Shown: positions 22,676 to 29,646 of the stretch, piece after piece
How the letters are laid out: every line of letters begins with the position of its first letter
Numbering within the stretch: the stretch's first letter is position 1
NCBI RefSeq assembly: GCF_054482595.1
Contig: NZ_CM137008.1
Length of the DNA stretch: 64,000 bases
Direction: 5' to 3' (one strand)
Program-made: the position numbers and the translations under genes
Notes under the pieces: generated by a model
Seen by the model: only the letters and a program-made list of their open reading frames with translations
The model's database searches: none
What the model was told of the DNA's origin: nothing

Positions 22676-22722
22676 AGATAATCATTGGATGGCACAATCA
22701 ATTTTCGCTAATGATAACCATT
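22676..22722 (+). promoter_or_regulatory. Candidate Fur boxes (GATAATCATTGG and AATGATAACCATT) at the yddA start
   Basis: Matches to the GATAATGATAATCATTATC consensus read from sequence; coordinates approx. Confidence 0.4.
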
Positions 22723-24396
22723 CCCATTACGTTTTGTATGTTGATAGCAAAGTATCTCTGTCTGCTGAAGCCCTTTTGGCTGCGTAAGAATAATAAAACT
22801 TCAGTGTTGTTAATCATTATTATCCTCGCCATGATCCTTGGCGTGGTTAAAATTCAGGTCTGGTTAAACGACTGGAATAATGATTTTTTCAATGCGCTAA
22901 GCCAGAAAGAAACCGATAAGCTTTGGCAGCTTGTCCTTTGGTTCCCTGCCCTGCTGGGGATCTTTGTATTAATATCCGTAAACAAAACATGGTTAATTAA
23001 ACTGCTGACTATTCGCTGGCGCGAATGGTTAACAGATTACTACCTTAATCGGTGGTTTGCAGATAAAAACTACTACTTCACGCAGATCTACGGCGAGCAT
23101 AAAAATACAGATAACCCTGACCAACGTATCGCTGAAGACATTCTCTTACTGATCAGCAAAACGCTCAGTCTTTCATTTGGCTTCATCCAGTCACTTAGCA
23201 TGCTGATCACCTTTACCGTTATTCTTTGGCAAAGCGCGGGTACGCTCTCATTCACTGTTGGTGGAACAGAATGGAATATCCAGGGGTATATGGTCTATAC
23301 CGTCGTGCTCATTGTGATCGGTGGAACTTTATTTACCCATAAGGTGGGTAAACGTATTCGTCCACTTAATGTGGAAAAACAACGTAGCGAAGCGACATTT
23401 CGAACTAATCTTGTGCAGCATAATAAACAGGCAGAACTGATTGCGCTAAGCAATGCTGAGTCTCTACAACGCCAGGAGTTGAGCGACAATTTTCATACCA
23501 TTAAAGAGAACTGGCATCGTTTAATGAATCGTCAGCGGTGGCTTGATTACTGGCAGAATATTTATTCGCGTTCGCTTAGCGTTCTTCCGTACTTTCTGTT
23601 ATTGCCGCAGTTTATTAGCGGACAGATCAATCTGGGCGGACTGATGAAATCGCGCCAGGCATTTATGCTGGTATCGAACAATTTAAGCTGGTTTATTTAT
23701 AAATATGACGAACTTGCTGAACTGGCTGCGGTTATCGATCGCTTGTATGAGTTCCATCAACTCACCGAACAGCGCCCTACGAATAAGCCTAAAAATTGCC
23801 AACATGCGGTACAAGTGGCTGACGCGAGTATTCGTACCCCTGATAATAAGATCATATTAGAGAACCTGAACTTTCATGTTCCGCCAGGCAAATGGCTATT
23901 ACTGAAAGGTTACTCTGGTGCGGGAAAAACCACACTGCTTAAAACATTATCCCACTGCTGGCCGTGGTTTAAAGGTGATATTTCTTCTCCTGCTGACAGT
24001 TGGTATGTGTCACAAACACCGTTAATCAAAACCGGCTTACTGAAAGAGATTATTTGTAAAGCACTTCCCCTGCCCGTAGACGATAAATCGTTGAGCGAAG
24101 TACTGCATCAGGTTGGTCTTGGGAAATTGGCTGCGCGTATTCATGACCACGATCGCTGGGGAGATATTCTTTCCAGCGGCGAAAAACAACGTATCGCCCT
24201 GGCACGATTAATTTTACGACGTCCGAAATGGATATTTCTTGACGAAACTACCTCTCATCTTGAGGAACAAGAGGCTATCCGCTTACTGCGTTTAGTGCGT
24301 GAAAAACTACCCACAAGCGGCGTCATTATGGTTACACATCAACCCGGTGTCTGGAACCTGGCCGATGATATTTGTGACATTAGCGCGGTTTTATAA
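22711..24396 (+). CDS. yddA: Fused ABC transporter permease/ATPase (561 aa)
   Basis: N-terminal transmembrane domain, C-terminal NBD with Walker A (GYSGAGKTT) and signature motif (LSSGEKQR). Confidence 0.85.
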   Translation: MITIPITFCMLIAKYLCLLKPFWLRKNNKTSVLLIIIILAMILGVVKIQVWLNDWNNDFFNALSQKETDKLWQLVLWFPALLGIFVLISVNKTWLIKLLTIRWREWLTDYYLNRWFADKNYYFTQIYGEHKNTDNPDQRIAEDILLLISKTLSLSFGFIQSLSMLITFTVILWQSAGTLSFTVGGTEWNIQGYMVYTVVLIVIGGTLFTHKVGKRIRPLNVEKQRSEATFRTNLVQHNKQAELIALSNAESLQRQELSDNFHTIKENWHRLMNRQRWLDYWQNIYSRSLSVLPYFLLLPQFISGQINLGGLMKSRQAFMLVSNNLSWFIYKYDELAELAAVIDRLYEFHQLTEQRPTNKPKNCQHAVQVADASIRTPDNKIILENLNFHVPPGKWLLLKGYSGAGKTTLLKTLSHCWPWFKGDISSPADSWYVSQTPLIKTGLLKEIICKALPLPVDDKSLSEVLHQVGLGKLAARIHDHDRWGDILSSGEKQRIALARLILRRPKWIFLDETTSHLEEQEAIRLLRLVREKLPTSGVIMVTHQPGVWNLADDICDISAVL

Positions 24397-24433
24397 AAAC
24401 AATAAAAGCCCTGCTGTACGGAGATATAAATAA

Positions 24434-26806: not shown

Positions 26807-26850
26807 TAGTTCGGATTTTACTTAACCGGGTAAATTCGCCCGGTTTTCGC

Positions 26851-29646
26851 ATGGAGATAATTATGAGAAACCTCTGTTTCTTACTGACGTTAGTGGCAAC
26901 TCTGTTGCTCCCCGGGCGGCTGATTGCCGCCGCCTTACCGCAGGATGAAAAGTTAATTACCGGGCAATTGGACAATGGCTTGCGATATATGATTTATCCG
27001 CATGCTCATCCAAAGGATCAGGTAAATTTATGGCTGCAAATTCATACCGGTTCATTGCAGGAAGAAGACAATGAGCGCGGCGTGGCTCATTTTGTAGAAC
27101 ATATGATGTTTAACGGCACAAAAACATGGCCGGGTAATAAAGTCATCGAAACATTTGAGTCAATGGGCCTGCGTTTTGGTCGCGATGTTAATGCCTATAC
27201 CAGCTATGACGAAACGGTGTATCAGGTGAGTTTGCCAACTACGCAGAAACAAAATCTGCAACAAGTGATGGCAATCTTCAGTGAATGGAGTAATGCCGCA
27301 ACCTTTGAAAAACTCGAAGTAGACGCTGAACGCGGCGTAATTACTGAGGAATGGCGTGCCCATCAGGATGCGAAATGGCGCACCTCTCAGGCGCGCCGCC
27401 CTTTCCTGCTGGCTAATACCCGTAATTTAGACCGTGAACCTATCGGCCTGATGGATACTGTCGCCACGGTCACACCGGCACAATTGCGCCAATTTTATCA
27501 ACGCTGGTATCAACCAAATAATATGACCTTTATCGTGGTTGGCGATATCGACAGTAAAGAAGCGCTGGCGCTGATAAAGGATAATTTAAGTAAGCTTCCG
27601 GCTAACAAAGCAGCTGAAAATCGCGTCTGGCCGACAAAAGCCGAAAACCACCTGCGCTTTAATATCATTAATGATAAAGAAAACCGGGTGAACGGCATCG
27701 CACTCTATTATCGCCTGCCAATGGTACAAGTGAACGATGAGCAAAGCTTTATCGAACAAGCTGAATGGAGCATGTTAGTTCAGCTGTTCAATCAACGTCT
27801 GCAGGAACGTATACAGTCGGGCGAGTTGAAGACTATTTCTGGCGGCACTGCGCGCAGCGTTAAAATTGCACCCGATTATCAGTCGCTGTTTTTCCGTGTA
27901 AATGCACGAGACGATAATATGCAGGATGCTGCGAATGCATTAATGGCAGAGTTGGCAACCATTGATCAGCATGGTTTTTCTGCTGAAGAACTCGATGATG
28001 TCAAATCTACCCGCCTCACCTGGCTGAAAAATGCGGTTGATCAGCAAGCTGAACGTGATTTACGTATGCTGACCAGTCGCCTGGCATCCAGCTCATTAAA
28101 TAATACGCCGTTCTTGTCGCCGGAAGAGACATATCAACTTTCGAAACGTCTGTGGCAGCAAATTACCGTGCAAAGTCTGGCGGAAAAATGGCAGCAGTTA
28201 AGAAAGAACCAGGACGCATTTTGGGAGCAAATGGTAAACAATGAGGTTGCCGCAAAAAAAGCATTGTCTCCTGCGGCTATCCTGGCGCTGGAAAAAGAGT
28301 ACGCCAACAAAAAGCTGGCGGCTTACATCTTCCCAGGCAGAAATTTATCGTTAACAGTAGACGCTGACCCACAGGCGGAAATTAGCAGCAAAGAAACGCT
28401 GGCTGAGAATCTGACATCATTAACACTTTCCAATGGTGCCAGGGTTATTCTGGCAAAATCCGCGGGTGAAGAGCAAAAGCTACAAATTATTGCCGTATCG
28501 AATAAAGGCGATTTAAGTTTCCCTGCGCAGCAAAAATCACTTATCGCGCTGGCAAATAAAGCAGTTAGCGGAAGCGGCGTTGGCGAACTCTCCTCTTCCA
28601 GCCTGAAACGCTGGAGTGCGGAAAACTCGGTAACCATGAGCAGTAAAGTCAGTGGCATGAATACGTTGCTCTCCGTTAGCGCGCGGACTAATAACCCTGA
28701 ACCTGGTTTCCAGTTGATTAACCAGCGAATCACCCACAGCACGATTAACGACAATATTTGGGCATCGCTACAAAATGCTCAAATTCAGGCGTTGAAAACG
28801 CTCGACCAGCGTCCAGCGGAGAAATTCGCCCAGCAGATGTATGAGACGCGCTATGCTGATGACCGCACGAAATTACTGCAAGAAAATCAGATTGCACAGT
28901 TTACTGCCGCAGATGCGCTGGCTGCCGATCGCCAGTTGTTTTCATCTCCAGCGGATATCACGTTTGTCATTGTCGGTAATGTCGCAGAAGACAAACTCAT
29001 GGCGTTAATTACGCGTTACTTAGGCTCAATCAAACACTCTGATTCGCCATTAGCCGCAGGTAAACCATTAACTCGCGCGACGGACAACGCATCGGTTACT
29101 GTAAAGGAACAAAATGAACCCGTGGCACAGGTTTCACAGTGGAAGCGTTATGATTCCCGGACACCTGTTAATCTGGCGACGCGTATGGCGCTCGATGCTT
29201 TTAACGTCGCACTGGCAAAAGATCTACGCGTTAATATTCGTGAACAGGCATCTGGGGCATACAGCGTTTCTTCTCGCCTCTCGGTTGATCCTCAGGCCAA
29301 AGATATCAGTCATTTGCTGGCTTTTACTTGTCAACCAGAACGACATGATGAACTGTTAACGTTAGCGAATGAAGTGATGGTTAAGCGTCTGGCTAAAGGG
29401 ATCAGTGAGCAAGAACTGAACGAATACCAGCAAAACGTTCAGCGCAGCCTCGATATCCAACAGCGTAGCGTTCAACAATTAGCGAACACTATTGTAAATA
29501 GTCTTATTCAATATGACGATCCTGCAGCATGGACTGAGCAGGAGCAATTGTTGAAACAAATGACGGTAGAGAATGTTAACACTGCCGTTAAACAATATCT
29601 TTCTCATCCGGTAAATACTTATACCGGAGTATTATTGCCTAAATAA
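26851..29646 (+). CDS. pqqL: Periplasmic M16-family zinc metallopeptidase (931 aa)
   Basis: Signal peptide; inverted zinc-binding motif HxxEH (HFVEH). Confidence 0.9.
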   Translation: MEIIMRNLCFLLTLVATLLLPGRLIAAALPQDEKLITGQLDNGLRYMIYPHAHPKDQVNLWLQIHTGSLQEEDNERGVAHFVEHMMFNGTKTWPGNKVIETFESMGLRFGRDVNAYTSYDETVYQVSLPTTQKQNLQQVMAIFSEWSNAATFEKLEVDAERGVITEEWRAHQDAKWRTSQARRPFLLANTRNLDREPIGLMDTVATVTPAQLRQFYQRWYQPNNMTFIVVGDIDSKEALALIKDNLSKLPANKAAENRVWPTKAENHLRFNIINDKENRVNGIALYYRLPMVQVNDEQSFIEQAEWSMLVQLFNQRLQERIQSGELKTISGGTARSVKIAPDYQSLFFRVNARDDNMQDAANALMAELATIDQHGFSAEELDDVKSTRLTWLKNAVDQQAERDLRMLTSRLASSSLNNTPFLSPEETYQLSKRLWQQITVQSLAEKWQQLRKNQDAFWEQMVNNEVAAKKALSPAAILALEKEYANKKLAAYIFPGRNLSLTVDADPQAEISSKETLAENLTSLTLSNGARVILAKSAGEEQKLQIIAVSNKGDLSFPAQQKSLIALANKAVSGSGVGELSSSSLKRWSAENSVTMSSKVSGMNTLLSVSARTNNPEPGFQLINQRITHSTINDNIWASLQNAQIQALKTLDQRPAEKFAQQMYETRYADDRTKLLQENQIAQFTAADALAADRQLFSSPADITFVIVGNVAEDKLMALITRYLGSIKHSDSPLAAGKPLTRATDNASVTVKEQNEPVAQVSQWKRYDSRTPVNLATRMALDAFNVALAKDLRVNIREQASGAYSVSSRLSVDPQAKDISHLLAFTCQPERHDELLTLANEVMVKRLAKGISEQELNEYQQNVQRSLDIQQRSVQQLANTIVNSLIQYDDPAAWTEQEQLLKQMTVENVNTAVKQYLSHPVNTYTGVLLPK

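What the first reader, a model, noticed from the sequence alone, without database searches (positions are those of the whole stretch)
22676..29646. yddA-yddB-pqqL: exporter, TonB-dependent receptor-like barrel and M16 peptidase as one iron-regulated unit
Three co-directional genes with short gaps (37 and 44 bp) encode a fused ABC transporter, a 790-aa outer-membrane barrel and a periplasmic HxxEH peptidase. Fur-box-like sequences overlap the yddA start. The arrangement suggests a protease-coupled import/export module, possibly for nutrient acquisition from protein substrates. A hairpin between yddB and pqqL (approx 26822-26845) could modulate read-through. The cluster GC content is visibly below that of neighbouring core genes, consistent with horizontal origin.
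Basis: partly seen in the sequence, partly recalled or inferred. Interest (0 to 1): 0.5.

Follow-up and report, generated by a model that had tools for sequence, protein, structure and literature searches.

The report
Known E. coli yddA-yddB-pqqL iron operon

Summary
Three co-directional genes, yddA (22711-24396), yddB (24434-26806) and pqqL (26851 or 26863 to 29646), lie between a promoter with a Fur box and a strong terminator. The window is the E. coli chromosome.

- RT-PCR shows co-transcription.
- The same Fur box has been reported.
- The genes are derepressed in a fur mutant, and Fur ChIP finds a site upstream.
- Crystal structures exist for YddB (6OFR) and PqqL (6OFS, 6OFT).
- The 'protease-associated import system' model, built on Pectobacterium FusA/FusC/FusD, has been proposed for this operon.

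The substrate is still unknown.

- YddA belongs to the SbmA/BclA/Rv1819c-type ABC family. Its characterised members are importers, so 'exporter' is unsupported.
- The yddA start is probably ATG 22738. That places the Fur box in the 5' UTR, just after a conserved extended -10 element.
- The yddB-pqqL hairpin is real and is kept in E. fergusonii through a compensatory change.
- Low GC does not set the cluster apart from its upstream neighbours.
- Roughly 13% of complete E. coli genomes, including an O25b:H4 strain, have lost the operon through two independent deletions.

Verdict: already known, low interest.

The parts
22669..22698 (+). Predicted sigma-70 promoter of the operon: -35 TTGCCA (22669-22674), an 18-nt spacer, and an extended -10 TGgCACAAT (22690-22698).
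   Evidence: Consensus scan. TGGCACAAT and TTGC are invariant between E. coli strains and E. fergusonii, while the flanking sequence diverges (alignment A1). The transcription start was not mapped here.
22707..22731 (+). Fur box: 15 of 19 matches at 22707-22725, with an overlapping 13 of 19 match shifted by 6 nt at 22713-22731. It lies directly downstream of the -10 element. A weaker 12 of 19 match at 22671-22689 overlaps the -35 and spacer.
   Evidence: P about 0.002 in composition-matched simulations. The same sequence is published as a Fur box in PMC3855560. It is conserved at the same position in E. fergusonii. Boxes of 15-16 of 19 lie upstream of the related modules in L009, L007 and L008.
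22711..24396 (+). yddA: a fused ABC transporter with an SbmA/BacA-type transmembrane domain and a nucleotide-binding domain. It is annotated at 561 aa, but the likely true start is ATG 22738 (552 aa).
   Evidence: Pfam ABC_membrane_2 1.8e-43, SbmA_BacA 2.4e-33, ABC_tran 2.9e-18. Walker A GYSGAGKT at 400 and signature SSGE at 488. Best PDB relative is Rv1819c (6TQE), 2.8e-67. Start-codon argument: alignment A1.
24434..26806 (+). yddB: a TonB-dependent outer-membrane transporter related to FusA. It has a signal peptide ending in AQA, a TonB box EEMTVYA at residues 31-37, a plug domain, and a C-terminal Phe.
   Evidence: PDB 6OFR matches at E=0 over residues 29-790, and FusA (4ZGV) at 4.2e-80. 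Pfam Plug 1.3e-6. The TonB-box motif is conserved across 15 homologues.
26824..26845 (+). Stem-loop between yddB and pqqL: 8 bp, a 6-nt loop, then UUCG. It is a candidate weak terminator, attenuator or RNA-stability element.
   Evidence: -12.8 kcal/mol, z = -3.4. It is kept in E. fergusonii, with an A-U to G-C compensatory change and a longer stem (alignment A2). Unrelated hairpins occupy the same junction in L009 and L010. It does not pass the terminator scan's T-run rule.
26851..29646 (+). pqqL: a periplasmic M16 zinc metallopeptidase related to FusC. The RefSeq start is 26863, preceded by GGAG.
   Evidence: PDB 6OFS and 6OFT at E=0, FusC (6B03/6B05/6BRS) at about 1e-58. Pfam M16 plus two M16_C. 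HFVEH at residue 80.
29653..29682 (+). Intrinsic terminator of the operon: a 10-bp GC-rich stem followed by AUUUU.
   Evidence: -19.3 kcal/mol, z = -4.6, and none of 200 shuffles folded as well.

Best explanation
This is the Escherichia coli yddA-yddB-pqqL operon, a Fur-repressed 'protease-associated import system' related to the Pectobacterium ferredoxin-uptake (Fus) cluster.

Proposed mechanism:
1. With enough iron, Fe-Fur binds the box immediately downstream of the -10 element and blocks transcription.
2. When Fur is released, a single mRNA runs from about 22705 to the terminator at about 29680. A modest hairpin before pqqL may trim read-through.
3. YddB, energised by the housekeeping TonB through its TonB box, captures a small protein or peptide in its wide extracellular pocket and moves it into the periplasm.
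4. PqqL, a clam-shell M16 protease, cleaves the imported substrate.
5. YddA, an SbmA/BclA/Rv1819c-type ABC transporter, carries the product (peptide fragments or a released iron cofactor) into the cytoplasm.

Shown by published experiments: co-transcription, Fur control, the structures, periplasmic location and peptidase activity. Inferred: the substrate, that YddB actually transports a protein, and that YddA imports.
For: Identity of the locus:
- 100% DNA identity to E. coli chromosomes annotated yddA/yddB/pqqL.
- YddB equals 6OFR and PqqL equals 6OFS/6OFT.

Relation to Fus:
- FusA matches at 4.2e-80 and FusC at about 1e-58.
- yddA is described as a FusD homologue in PMC5095587.

One functional unit:
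- The triad of SbmA-type ABC transporter, Plug-domain TBDT and M16 protease is adjacent in several other lineages: E. fergusonii, two unnamed lineages whose YddB is 61% and 57% identical, Orbaceae (45%), Muribacter (28%, with the ABC gene inverted), and a cluster whose YddB homologue is 30% identical and which also carries TonB and an ECF sigma/FecR pair.
- dN/dS is 0.04-0.05 for all three genes.
- RT-PCR shows co-transcription (PMC3855560).

Iron and Fur regulation:
- The Fur box matches 15 of 19 positions, P about 0.002.
- Boxes are conserved upstream of the related modules.
- The genes are up-regulated in a fur mutant. Fur binds upstream by ChIP. PqqL is induced by bipyridine. yddA belongs to the Fur-2 iModulon.

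Import direction for YddA:
- The best solved relative is Rv1819c.
- BclA is nested within the YddA clade, and Burkholderia YddA is needed for uptake of the lasso peptide ubonodin.
Against: - No substrate is known. PqqL did not cleave the plant or human ferredoxins or the globins that were tested.
- Deleting yddB or pqqL gave no growth defect in iron-limited LB, even in a strain lacking all the TonB-dependent transporters known to act in iron uptake.
- In CFT073 the transcripts did not respond to dipyridyl or added iron, although they rose in a fur mutant and in urine.
- The operon has no dedicated TonB (FusB) gene.
- YddA has the type IV 'exporter' fold, and the function of E. coli YddA was still described as unknown in 2026.
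- About 13% of complete E. coli genomes have deleted the operon, so it is dispensable in many lineages.
Confidence: 0.7

Rival explanations
1. The system takes up and degrades peptides with no iron cargo. YddB would import a host or microbiota peptide or small protein, for example an antimicrobial peptide or a bacteriocin-like molecule. PqqL would destroy it, and YddA would import the fragments as nutrient or for detoxification. Fur control would then serve only as a 'host environment' signal.
For: - Characterised YddA/BclA/SbmA relatives move peptides, not metal cofactors.
- PqqL prefers aromatic-aromatic-Val/Ala tripeptides.
- CFT073 showed no response to iron chelation alone, but more than 30-fold induction in urine and a fitness defect in bacteraemia.
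- No iron-limited growth phenotype was found.
Against: - Fur boxes are conserved upstream of the module in four lineages.
- A related cluster uses FecI/FecR-type signalling and its own TonB, as iron systems typically do.
- The only family member with a known substrate, Fus, takes an iron-sulphur protein.
Confidence: 0.2
2. The genes are co-transcribed but work independently: YddA as a multidrug or peptide exporter, YddB as an ordinary siderophore-type receptor, and PqqL as a general periplasmic peptidase.
For: - Older annotations call YddA/YddB a 'multidrug transporter' and list yddAB and pqqL as separate units.
- A hairpin separates yddB from pqqL.
- YddA has the exporter-type fold.
Against: - The three genes stay adjacent across very distant lineages, even after rearrangement.
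- YddB matches none of the curated NCBIfam families at E<=0.001, so it falls in no curated siderophore, haem or B12 receptor family.
- YddB has FusA-like loops and a large pocket.
- RT-PCR spans both gene junctions.
Confidence: 0.07
3. PqqL matures a ribosomal peptide or cofactor, as PqqF does in PQQ synthesis, and YddA exports the product.
For: - The gene name comes from complementation of Methylobacterium pqqE/F mutants.
- There is a weak match to PqqF, TIGR02110, E = 5.7e-13.
Against: - The PqqF match scores 48.5 bits against a curated cut-off of 320.
- E. coli does not make PQQ.
- PqqL is periplasmic.
- No precursor-peptide gene or radical-SAM PqqE partner lies in the operon.
- Pairing with a TonB-dependent importer points to uptake.
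Confidence: 0.03

Closest known systems
E. coli K-12 / CFT073 yddA-yddB-pqqL operon (Subashchandrabose 2013, PMC3855560; Grinter 2019, PMC6793856; PDB 6OFR, 6OFS, 6OFT)
   Same: It is the same locus, with 98.6% DNA identity to a K-12 derivative (NEB Turbo) and 100% to several other strains. It has the same genes, the same Fur box and the same neighbours: ydeM upstream and gadB downstream.
   Different: Only strain-level polymorphism. For example, annotated YddA residues 8-9 are FC here and LR in K-12.
Pectobacterium ferredoxin uptake system FusA/FusB/FusC/FusD
   Same: [quoted passage not shown] Sequence relatedness: FusA 4.2e-80, FusC about 1e-58.
   Different: There is no dedicated TonB homologue (FusB) in the E. 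coli operon, the gene order differs, and the substrate is unknown. PqqL does not cut plant ferredoxin.
Rv1819c (M. tuberculosis), BclA (Bradyrhizobium), Burkholderia YddA, SbmA/BacA
   Same: YddA shares the SbmA/BacA-type transmembrane domain. Like Rv1819c, BclA and Burkholderia YddA, it also has a fused nucleotide-binding domain.
   Different: Those proteins have shown import cargoes (vitamin B12 and bleomycin, NCR peptides, lasso peptides). E. coli YddA has none. SbmA lacks the ATPase domain and runs on the proton gradient.

Membership tests
TonB-dependent transporter (YddB) | N-terminal plug domain | tested here: met
   Pfam Plug PF07715, E = 1.3e-6, residues 48-162.
TonB-dependent transporter (YddB) | 22-strand beta-barrel | tested here: met
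   Pfam detects no barrel domain. However, residues 29-790 match the whole of the 762-residue chain of the solved TBDT structure 6OFR (E = 0, 1733 bits), which PMC6793856 describes as a TBDT.
TonB-dependent transporter (YddB) | TonB box near the mature N-terminus | tested here: met
   EEMTVYA at residues 31-37. The motif (acidic-x-hydrophobic-x-V-x-A/G) is conserved at the same aligned position in 15 homologues. Its resemblance to the classical boxes, such as ETMVVTA, rests on established knowledge. Functional dependence on TonB was not tested.
TonB-dependent transporter (YddB) | Membership of a curated siderophore, haem or B12 receptor subfamily | tested here: not met
   No NCBIfam family matches at E <= 0.001. 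YddB lies outside the curated receptor subfamilies; its nearest characterised relative is FusA.
Fus-like protease-associated import system | A FusA-like TBDT and a FusC-like M16 protease encoded side by side | tested here: met
   The adjacency is conserved in six other lineages.
Fus-like protease-associated import system | A FusD-like fused ABC transporter in the cluster | tested here: inconclusive
   A fused SbmA-type ABC transporter is present, and PMC5095587 calls yddA a FusD homologue. No FusD sequence was compared directly here.
Fus-like protease-associated import system | A dedicated TonB homologue (FusB) | tested here: not met
   No TonB-like gene is annotated in the operon or anywhere in the window. 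A related cluster, L011, does carry one.
Fus-like protease-associated import system | Import and periplasmic cleavage of a defined protein substrate | not testable with these tools
   The substrate is unknown. The ferredoxins and globins that were tested were not cleaved (PMC6793856).
M16 (pitrilysin/insulinase) metallopeptidase (PqqL) | Inverted zinc motif HxxEH in an M16 domain, followed by inactive M16_C domains | tested here: met
   HFVEH at residue 80. Peptidase_M16 1.8e-40 and two M16_C domains.
PqqF (PQQ biosynthesis peptidase) | Score above the curated TIGR02110 cut-off | tested here: not met
   48.5 bits against a cut-off of 320. The gene name is a historical misnomer.
YddA/BclA/SbmA-like type IV ABC transporters (YddA) | SbmA_BacA/ABC_membrane_2 transmembrane domain fused to an ABC ATPase with Walker A, signature and Walker B motifs | tested here: met
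   for the domains. GYSGAGKT and SSGE. IFLDE was seen in my recollection of the K-12 YddA sequence and was not checked in the window; the Walker B pattern search found no match.
YddA/BclA/SbmA-like type IV ABC transporters (YddA) | Transport directed inwards | not testable with these tools
   Inferred only from relatives: Rv1819c, BclA and Burkholderia YddA.
Fur regulon | A Fur box at the promoter | tested here: met
   15 of 19 matches at 22707-22725, directly after the -10 element, P about 0.002. Conserved in related modules.
Fur regulon | Fur binding and derepression in vivo | not testable with these tools
   Literature only: a fur mutant shows up-regulation (PMC3855560), and Fur is bound upstream by ChIP (PMC4676285).

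The most novel reading that the evidence does not exclude
The cargo is not an iron cofactor. YddB-PqqL-YddA would be a Fur-cued pathway that pulls in a specific small host or microbiota protein or peptide, cuts it in the periplasm, and passes the peptide fragments to the cytoplasm through the SbmA/BclA-type importer YddA. On this reading the conserved hairpin before pqqL sets the receptor-to-protease ratio, and repeated loss of the operon, as in the O25b:H4 lineage, reflects a cost such as serving as an entry route for bacteriocins or lasso peptides.
Probability: 0.15. Interest if true: 0.5.

Novelty: already known. Interest (0 to 1): 0.12.

Why it matters
The operon matters as the E. coli example of TonB-dependent protein import coupled to periplasmic proteolysis, and as a fitness factor in a mouse model of bacteraemia. 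All of that is already published.

The open question is still the substrate. It adds only small refinements:
- YddA is most likely an importer.
- The yddA start codon and the placement of the Fur box probably need revising.
- The intergenic hairpin is conserved.
- The operon has been lost repeatedly in about 13% of complete genomes.

Tried and rejected
- Rfam search of 21000-31000 at E <= 1 found nothing. There is no known riboswitch or sRNA in the leader or the intergenic regions.
- NCBIfam gave no family for YddB, and nothing above the curated cut-offs for YddA or PqqL. It could not refine function.
- The terminator scan did not list the yddB-pqqL hairpin because its T-run is too short. I do not call it a proven terminator.
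- GC content as evidence of foreign origin: rejected as decisive, because the upstream neighbours ydeO, ydeN and ydeM are at or below the operon's GC.
- The YddB homologue in Oryzisolibacter (L012) stands alone, next to a MauG-type peroxidase gene. Not every relative sits in a triad.
- The look-up for the Corticibacter homologue (P0039) found no contig.
- I did not run structure prediction or fold search, because solved structures of the same proteins exist.
- I did not use the large genome or metagenome scans, because cluster look-ups already gave the synteny.

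
Full report
**What is there**

The window is E. coli chromosome. The 7.5-kb region 22400-29950 is 100% identical to several complete genomes and is found in 5410 of 5426 complete E. coli genomes. RefSeq annotates the stretch as ydeN, ydeM, (yneP), yddA, yddB, pqqL, gadB, gadC.

The ORF list gives three co-directional ORFs:
- 22711-24396, 561 aa
- 24434-26806, 790 aa
- 26851-29646, 931 aa

RefSeq starts pqqL at ATG 26863. That ATG sits 6 nt after a GGAG conserved in E. 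fergusonii, which makes the second gap 56 bp.

**The proteins**

YddA:
- It carries an SbmA/BacA-type ABC transmembrane domain (ABC_membrane_2 1.8e-43, SbmA_BacA 2.4e-33) fused to an ABC ATPase.
- Walker A is GYSGAGKT and the signature is SSGE.
- Its closest solved relative is Rv1819c of M. tuberculosis (6TQE, 2.8e-67).

YddB:
- It matches the solved 'TonB-dependent outer membrane receptor' 6OFR over residues 29-790 at E = 0. Its next PDB hit is the ferredoxin receptor FusA (4ZGV, 4.2e-80).
- Pfam sees only the plug domain (1.3e-6), and NCBIfam sees nothing. It is therefore a divergent TBDT outside the curated receptor subfamilies.
- It has a signal peptide ending in AQA and a C-terminal Phe.
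- The TonB-box-like motif EEMTVYA is conserved in position across 15 homologues.

PqqL:
- It equals 6OFS/6OFT and is related to FusC (6B03, 6B05, 6BRS, about 1e-58).
- It has HFVEH at residue 80, plus M16 and two M16_C domains.
- It is not PqqF: 48.5 bits against a cut-off of 320.

**Regulation signals**

- The best promoter-like site upstream is TTGCCA, 18 nt, TG-n-CACAAT at 22669-22698.
- Directly after it lies GCTAATGATAACCATTCCC (22707-22725), a 15 of 19 match to the Fur consensus. This is the joint best match in the 64-kb window. A 13 of 19 match sits 6 nt further on, and a 12 of 19 match lies over the -35 and spacer.
- A match of 15 or more occurred in 0.2% of composition-matched simulations of the 350-bp region.
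- In an alignment with E. fergusonii, the TGGCACAAT element and the Fur box stay invariant while the surrounding sequence diverges (A1).
- Fur-box matches of 15-16 of 19 also lie upstream of the first gene of the related modules in E. fergusonii, in an unnamed lineage whose YddB is 61% identical, and in Orbaceae.
- A 10-bp GC-rich stem followed by AUUUU closes the operon at 29653-29682 (-19.3 kcal/mol, z = -4.6).

**The start codon of yddA**

In E. fergusonii, the ATG homologous to 22711 is followed by an in-frame TAG before the ATG homologous to 22738. That species' gene is annotated from the second ATG.

Within E. coli, the nine extra codons carry two non-synonymous differences between K-12 and this window. 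From 22738 onward, the differences between the two species are mostly synonymous.

I infer that translation starts at 22738, giving 552 aa. The Fur box then lies in the first 20 nt or so of the transcript rather than on the start codon. This is inference and has not been mapped.

**The hairpin**

- It is identical in four of the five E. coli strains aligned. The fifth, ATCC 25922, differs at one base at the foot of the stem.
- It is retained in E. fergusonii with one A-U to G-C compensatory change, a U-G to U-A change, and a longer stem (A2).
- Unrelated hairpins sit at the same receptor-protease junction in two more distant modules, L009 and L010, but not in L015.
- Its U-tract is short and it fails the terminator scan. 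Published RT-PCR crosses this junction.
- It is at most a partial terminator or an RNA-stability element.

**One unit**

The triad of SbmA-type ABC transporter, Plug-domain TBDT and M16 peptidase is adjacent in these lineages:
- E. fergusonii (YddB 86% identical)
- Two unnamed lineages at 61% and 57%; the second sits next to a transposase gene
- Orbaceae at 45%
- Muribacter muris at 28%, with the ABC gene inverted
- A cluster at 30% that adds a TonB gene, an ECF sigma/FecR pair and an STN domain

One relative, in Oryzisolibacter, stands alone. All three genes are under strong purifying selection between E. coli and E. fergusonii, with dN/dS of 0.04-0.05.

**What is already published**

- Subashchandrabose et al. 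2013 (PMC3855560) showed co-transcription by RT-PCR. They also reported this same Fur box, more than 30-fold induction in urine, up-regulation in a fur mutant, and fitness defects of yddB and pqqL mutants in mouse bacteraemia. They saw no response to dipyridyl in CFT073.
- Beauchene et al. 2015 (PMC4676285) list yddAB-pqqL as bound upstream by Fur, with RNA levels raised by RyhB.
- Grinter et al. 2016 (PMC5095587) named YddB, PqqL and YddA as homologues of FusA, FusC and FusD.
- Grinter et al. 2019 (PMC6793856) solved YddB and PqqL. They showed that PqqL is periplasmic, iron-regulated and an active peptidase preferring F/Y-F/Y-V/A. They proposed 'protease-associated import'. They found no substrate and no growth phenotype in iron-limited LB.
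- A 2026 paper (PMC13316013) still calls YddA's function unknown. It places the importer BclA inside the YddA clade.
- Burkholderia YddA is required for uptake of the lasso peptide ubonodin.

The one label I would change is 'exporter', since the family evidence points to import.

**Horizontal origin**

- GC is 0.435-0.468, below gadB (0.537) and the window mean (0.479). The upstream genes ydeO, ydeN and ydeM are as low or lower, at 0.38-0.44. GC therefore does not single out this cluster.
- Better evidence is the patchy distribution across families, and IS elements next to two relatives.
- Synonymous divergence between E. coli and E. fergusonii is saturated for the three genes (dS 2.4-2.6), against 0.63-0.88 for the adjacent gadB and gadC.
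- Homology between the two species begins at 22586 and ends at 29651, then resumes at the gadB promoter. Their upstream flanks differ.
- This fits allelic replacement or separate acquisition at the same site, but I did not test it further.

**Loss of the operon**

Two different deletions remove the promoter, yddA, yddB and the first two-thirds of pqqL:
- Window 22432-28729, for example in an O25b:H4 strain
- Window 22532-28483

Junction searches give 726 genomes with one or the other, 160 of them of the second type. That is about 13% of 5426 complete genomes. The first count includes the second type because BLAST pieces are joined.

**Verdict**

The mechanism beyond regulation, structure and peptidase activity remains inferred, because the substrate is unidentified.

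Noticed in passing
window 22432-28729 and 22532-28483 (L002, L003): Two independent deletions remove the promoter, yddA, yddB and about two-thirds of pqqL, leaving a pqqL 3' remnant next to ydeM. Together they occur in about 13% of 5426 complete E. coli genomes (726 by junction search, 160 of the second type), including an O25b:H4 strain. This is notable because the operon has been described as an ExPEC fitness factor.
   Followed up: partly
window 22711-22740: The annotated yddA start (ATG 22711) is probably wrong. E. fergusonii has an in-frame stop between the equivalent ATG and the next one. The nine extra codons vary non-synonymously among E. coli strains, and a coding-type substitution pattern begins at ATG 22738.
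   Followed up: partly
window 22586-29651 compared with 29909-34556 (L013): Between E. coli and E. fergusonii, synonymous divergence of yddA, yddB and pqqL is saturated (dS 2.4-2.6). The adjacent gadB and gadC show dS of 0.63-0.88. The upstream flank also differs between the two species. This suggests allelic replacement or separate acquisition at one site.
   Followed up: partly
L014 6001-8364: An E. coli O146 contig carries a second yddB-like gene, only 70% identical, a few kb from IS66-family genes. tblastn finds no yddA or pqqL on the 8.9 kb of the contig examined.
   Followed up: partly
window 22387-22509 (- strand): yneP encodes a 40-aa protein validated experimentally in K-12. It is divergent from yddA and overlaps the 3' end of ydeM. 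Its coding region contains a strong hairpin at 22475-22500 (-16.8 kcal/mol, z = -5.2). A 13 of 19 Fur-like match lies at 22574, in the shared intergenic region.
   Followed up: no
window 29909-29928: An exact 20-bp GAD box (TTAGGATTTTGTTATTTAAA) lies upstream of gadB, in the AT-rich (GC 0.316) 361-bp spacer after pqqL. It is the known GadE-dependent control element.
   Followed up: yes
window 6740-6758: This is the only other 15 of 19 Fur-consensus match in the window (GATAATGAGTATTACTGTC, - strand). It lies in the region annotated as hipBA in a related strain and is probably a chance match.
   Followed up: no
window 56170-57501: A gene for a leucine-rich-repeat domain protein has the lowest GC in the window (0.331). 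It sits next to a truncated porin pseudogene (yddL) and looks much more foreign than the yddAB-pqqL cluster.
   Followed up: no
window 1 to about 11200: The first 11 kb or so of the window are out of register with strain XH990, which is otherwise identical apart from 6 SNPs. This indicates an indel in the autotransporter, hipBA or fimbrial region. The autotransporter gene is frameshifted in XH990.
   Followed up: no
L011 5465-15306: A distant relative of the module (YddB homologue 30% identical) carries its own TonB gene, an ECF sigma/FecR pair and an STN signalling domain on the receptor. It is a cell-surface-signalling version of the same triad.
   Followed up: no
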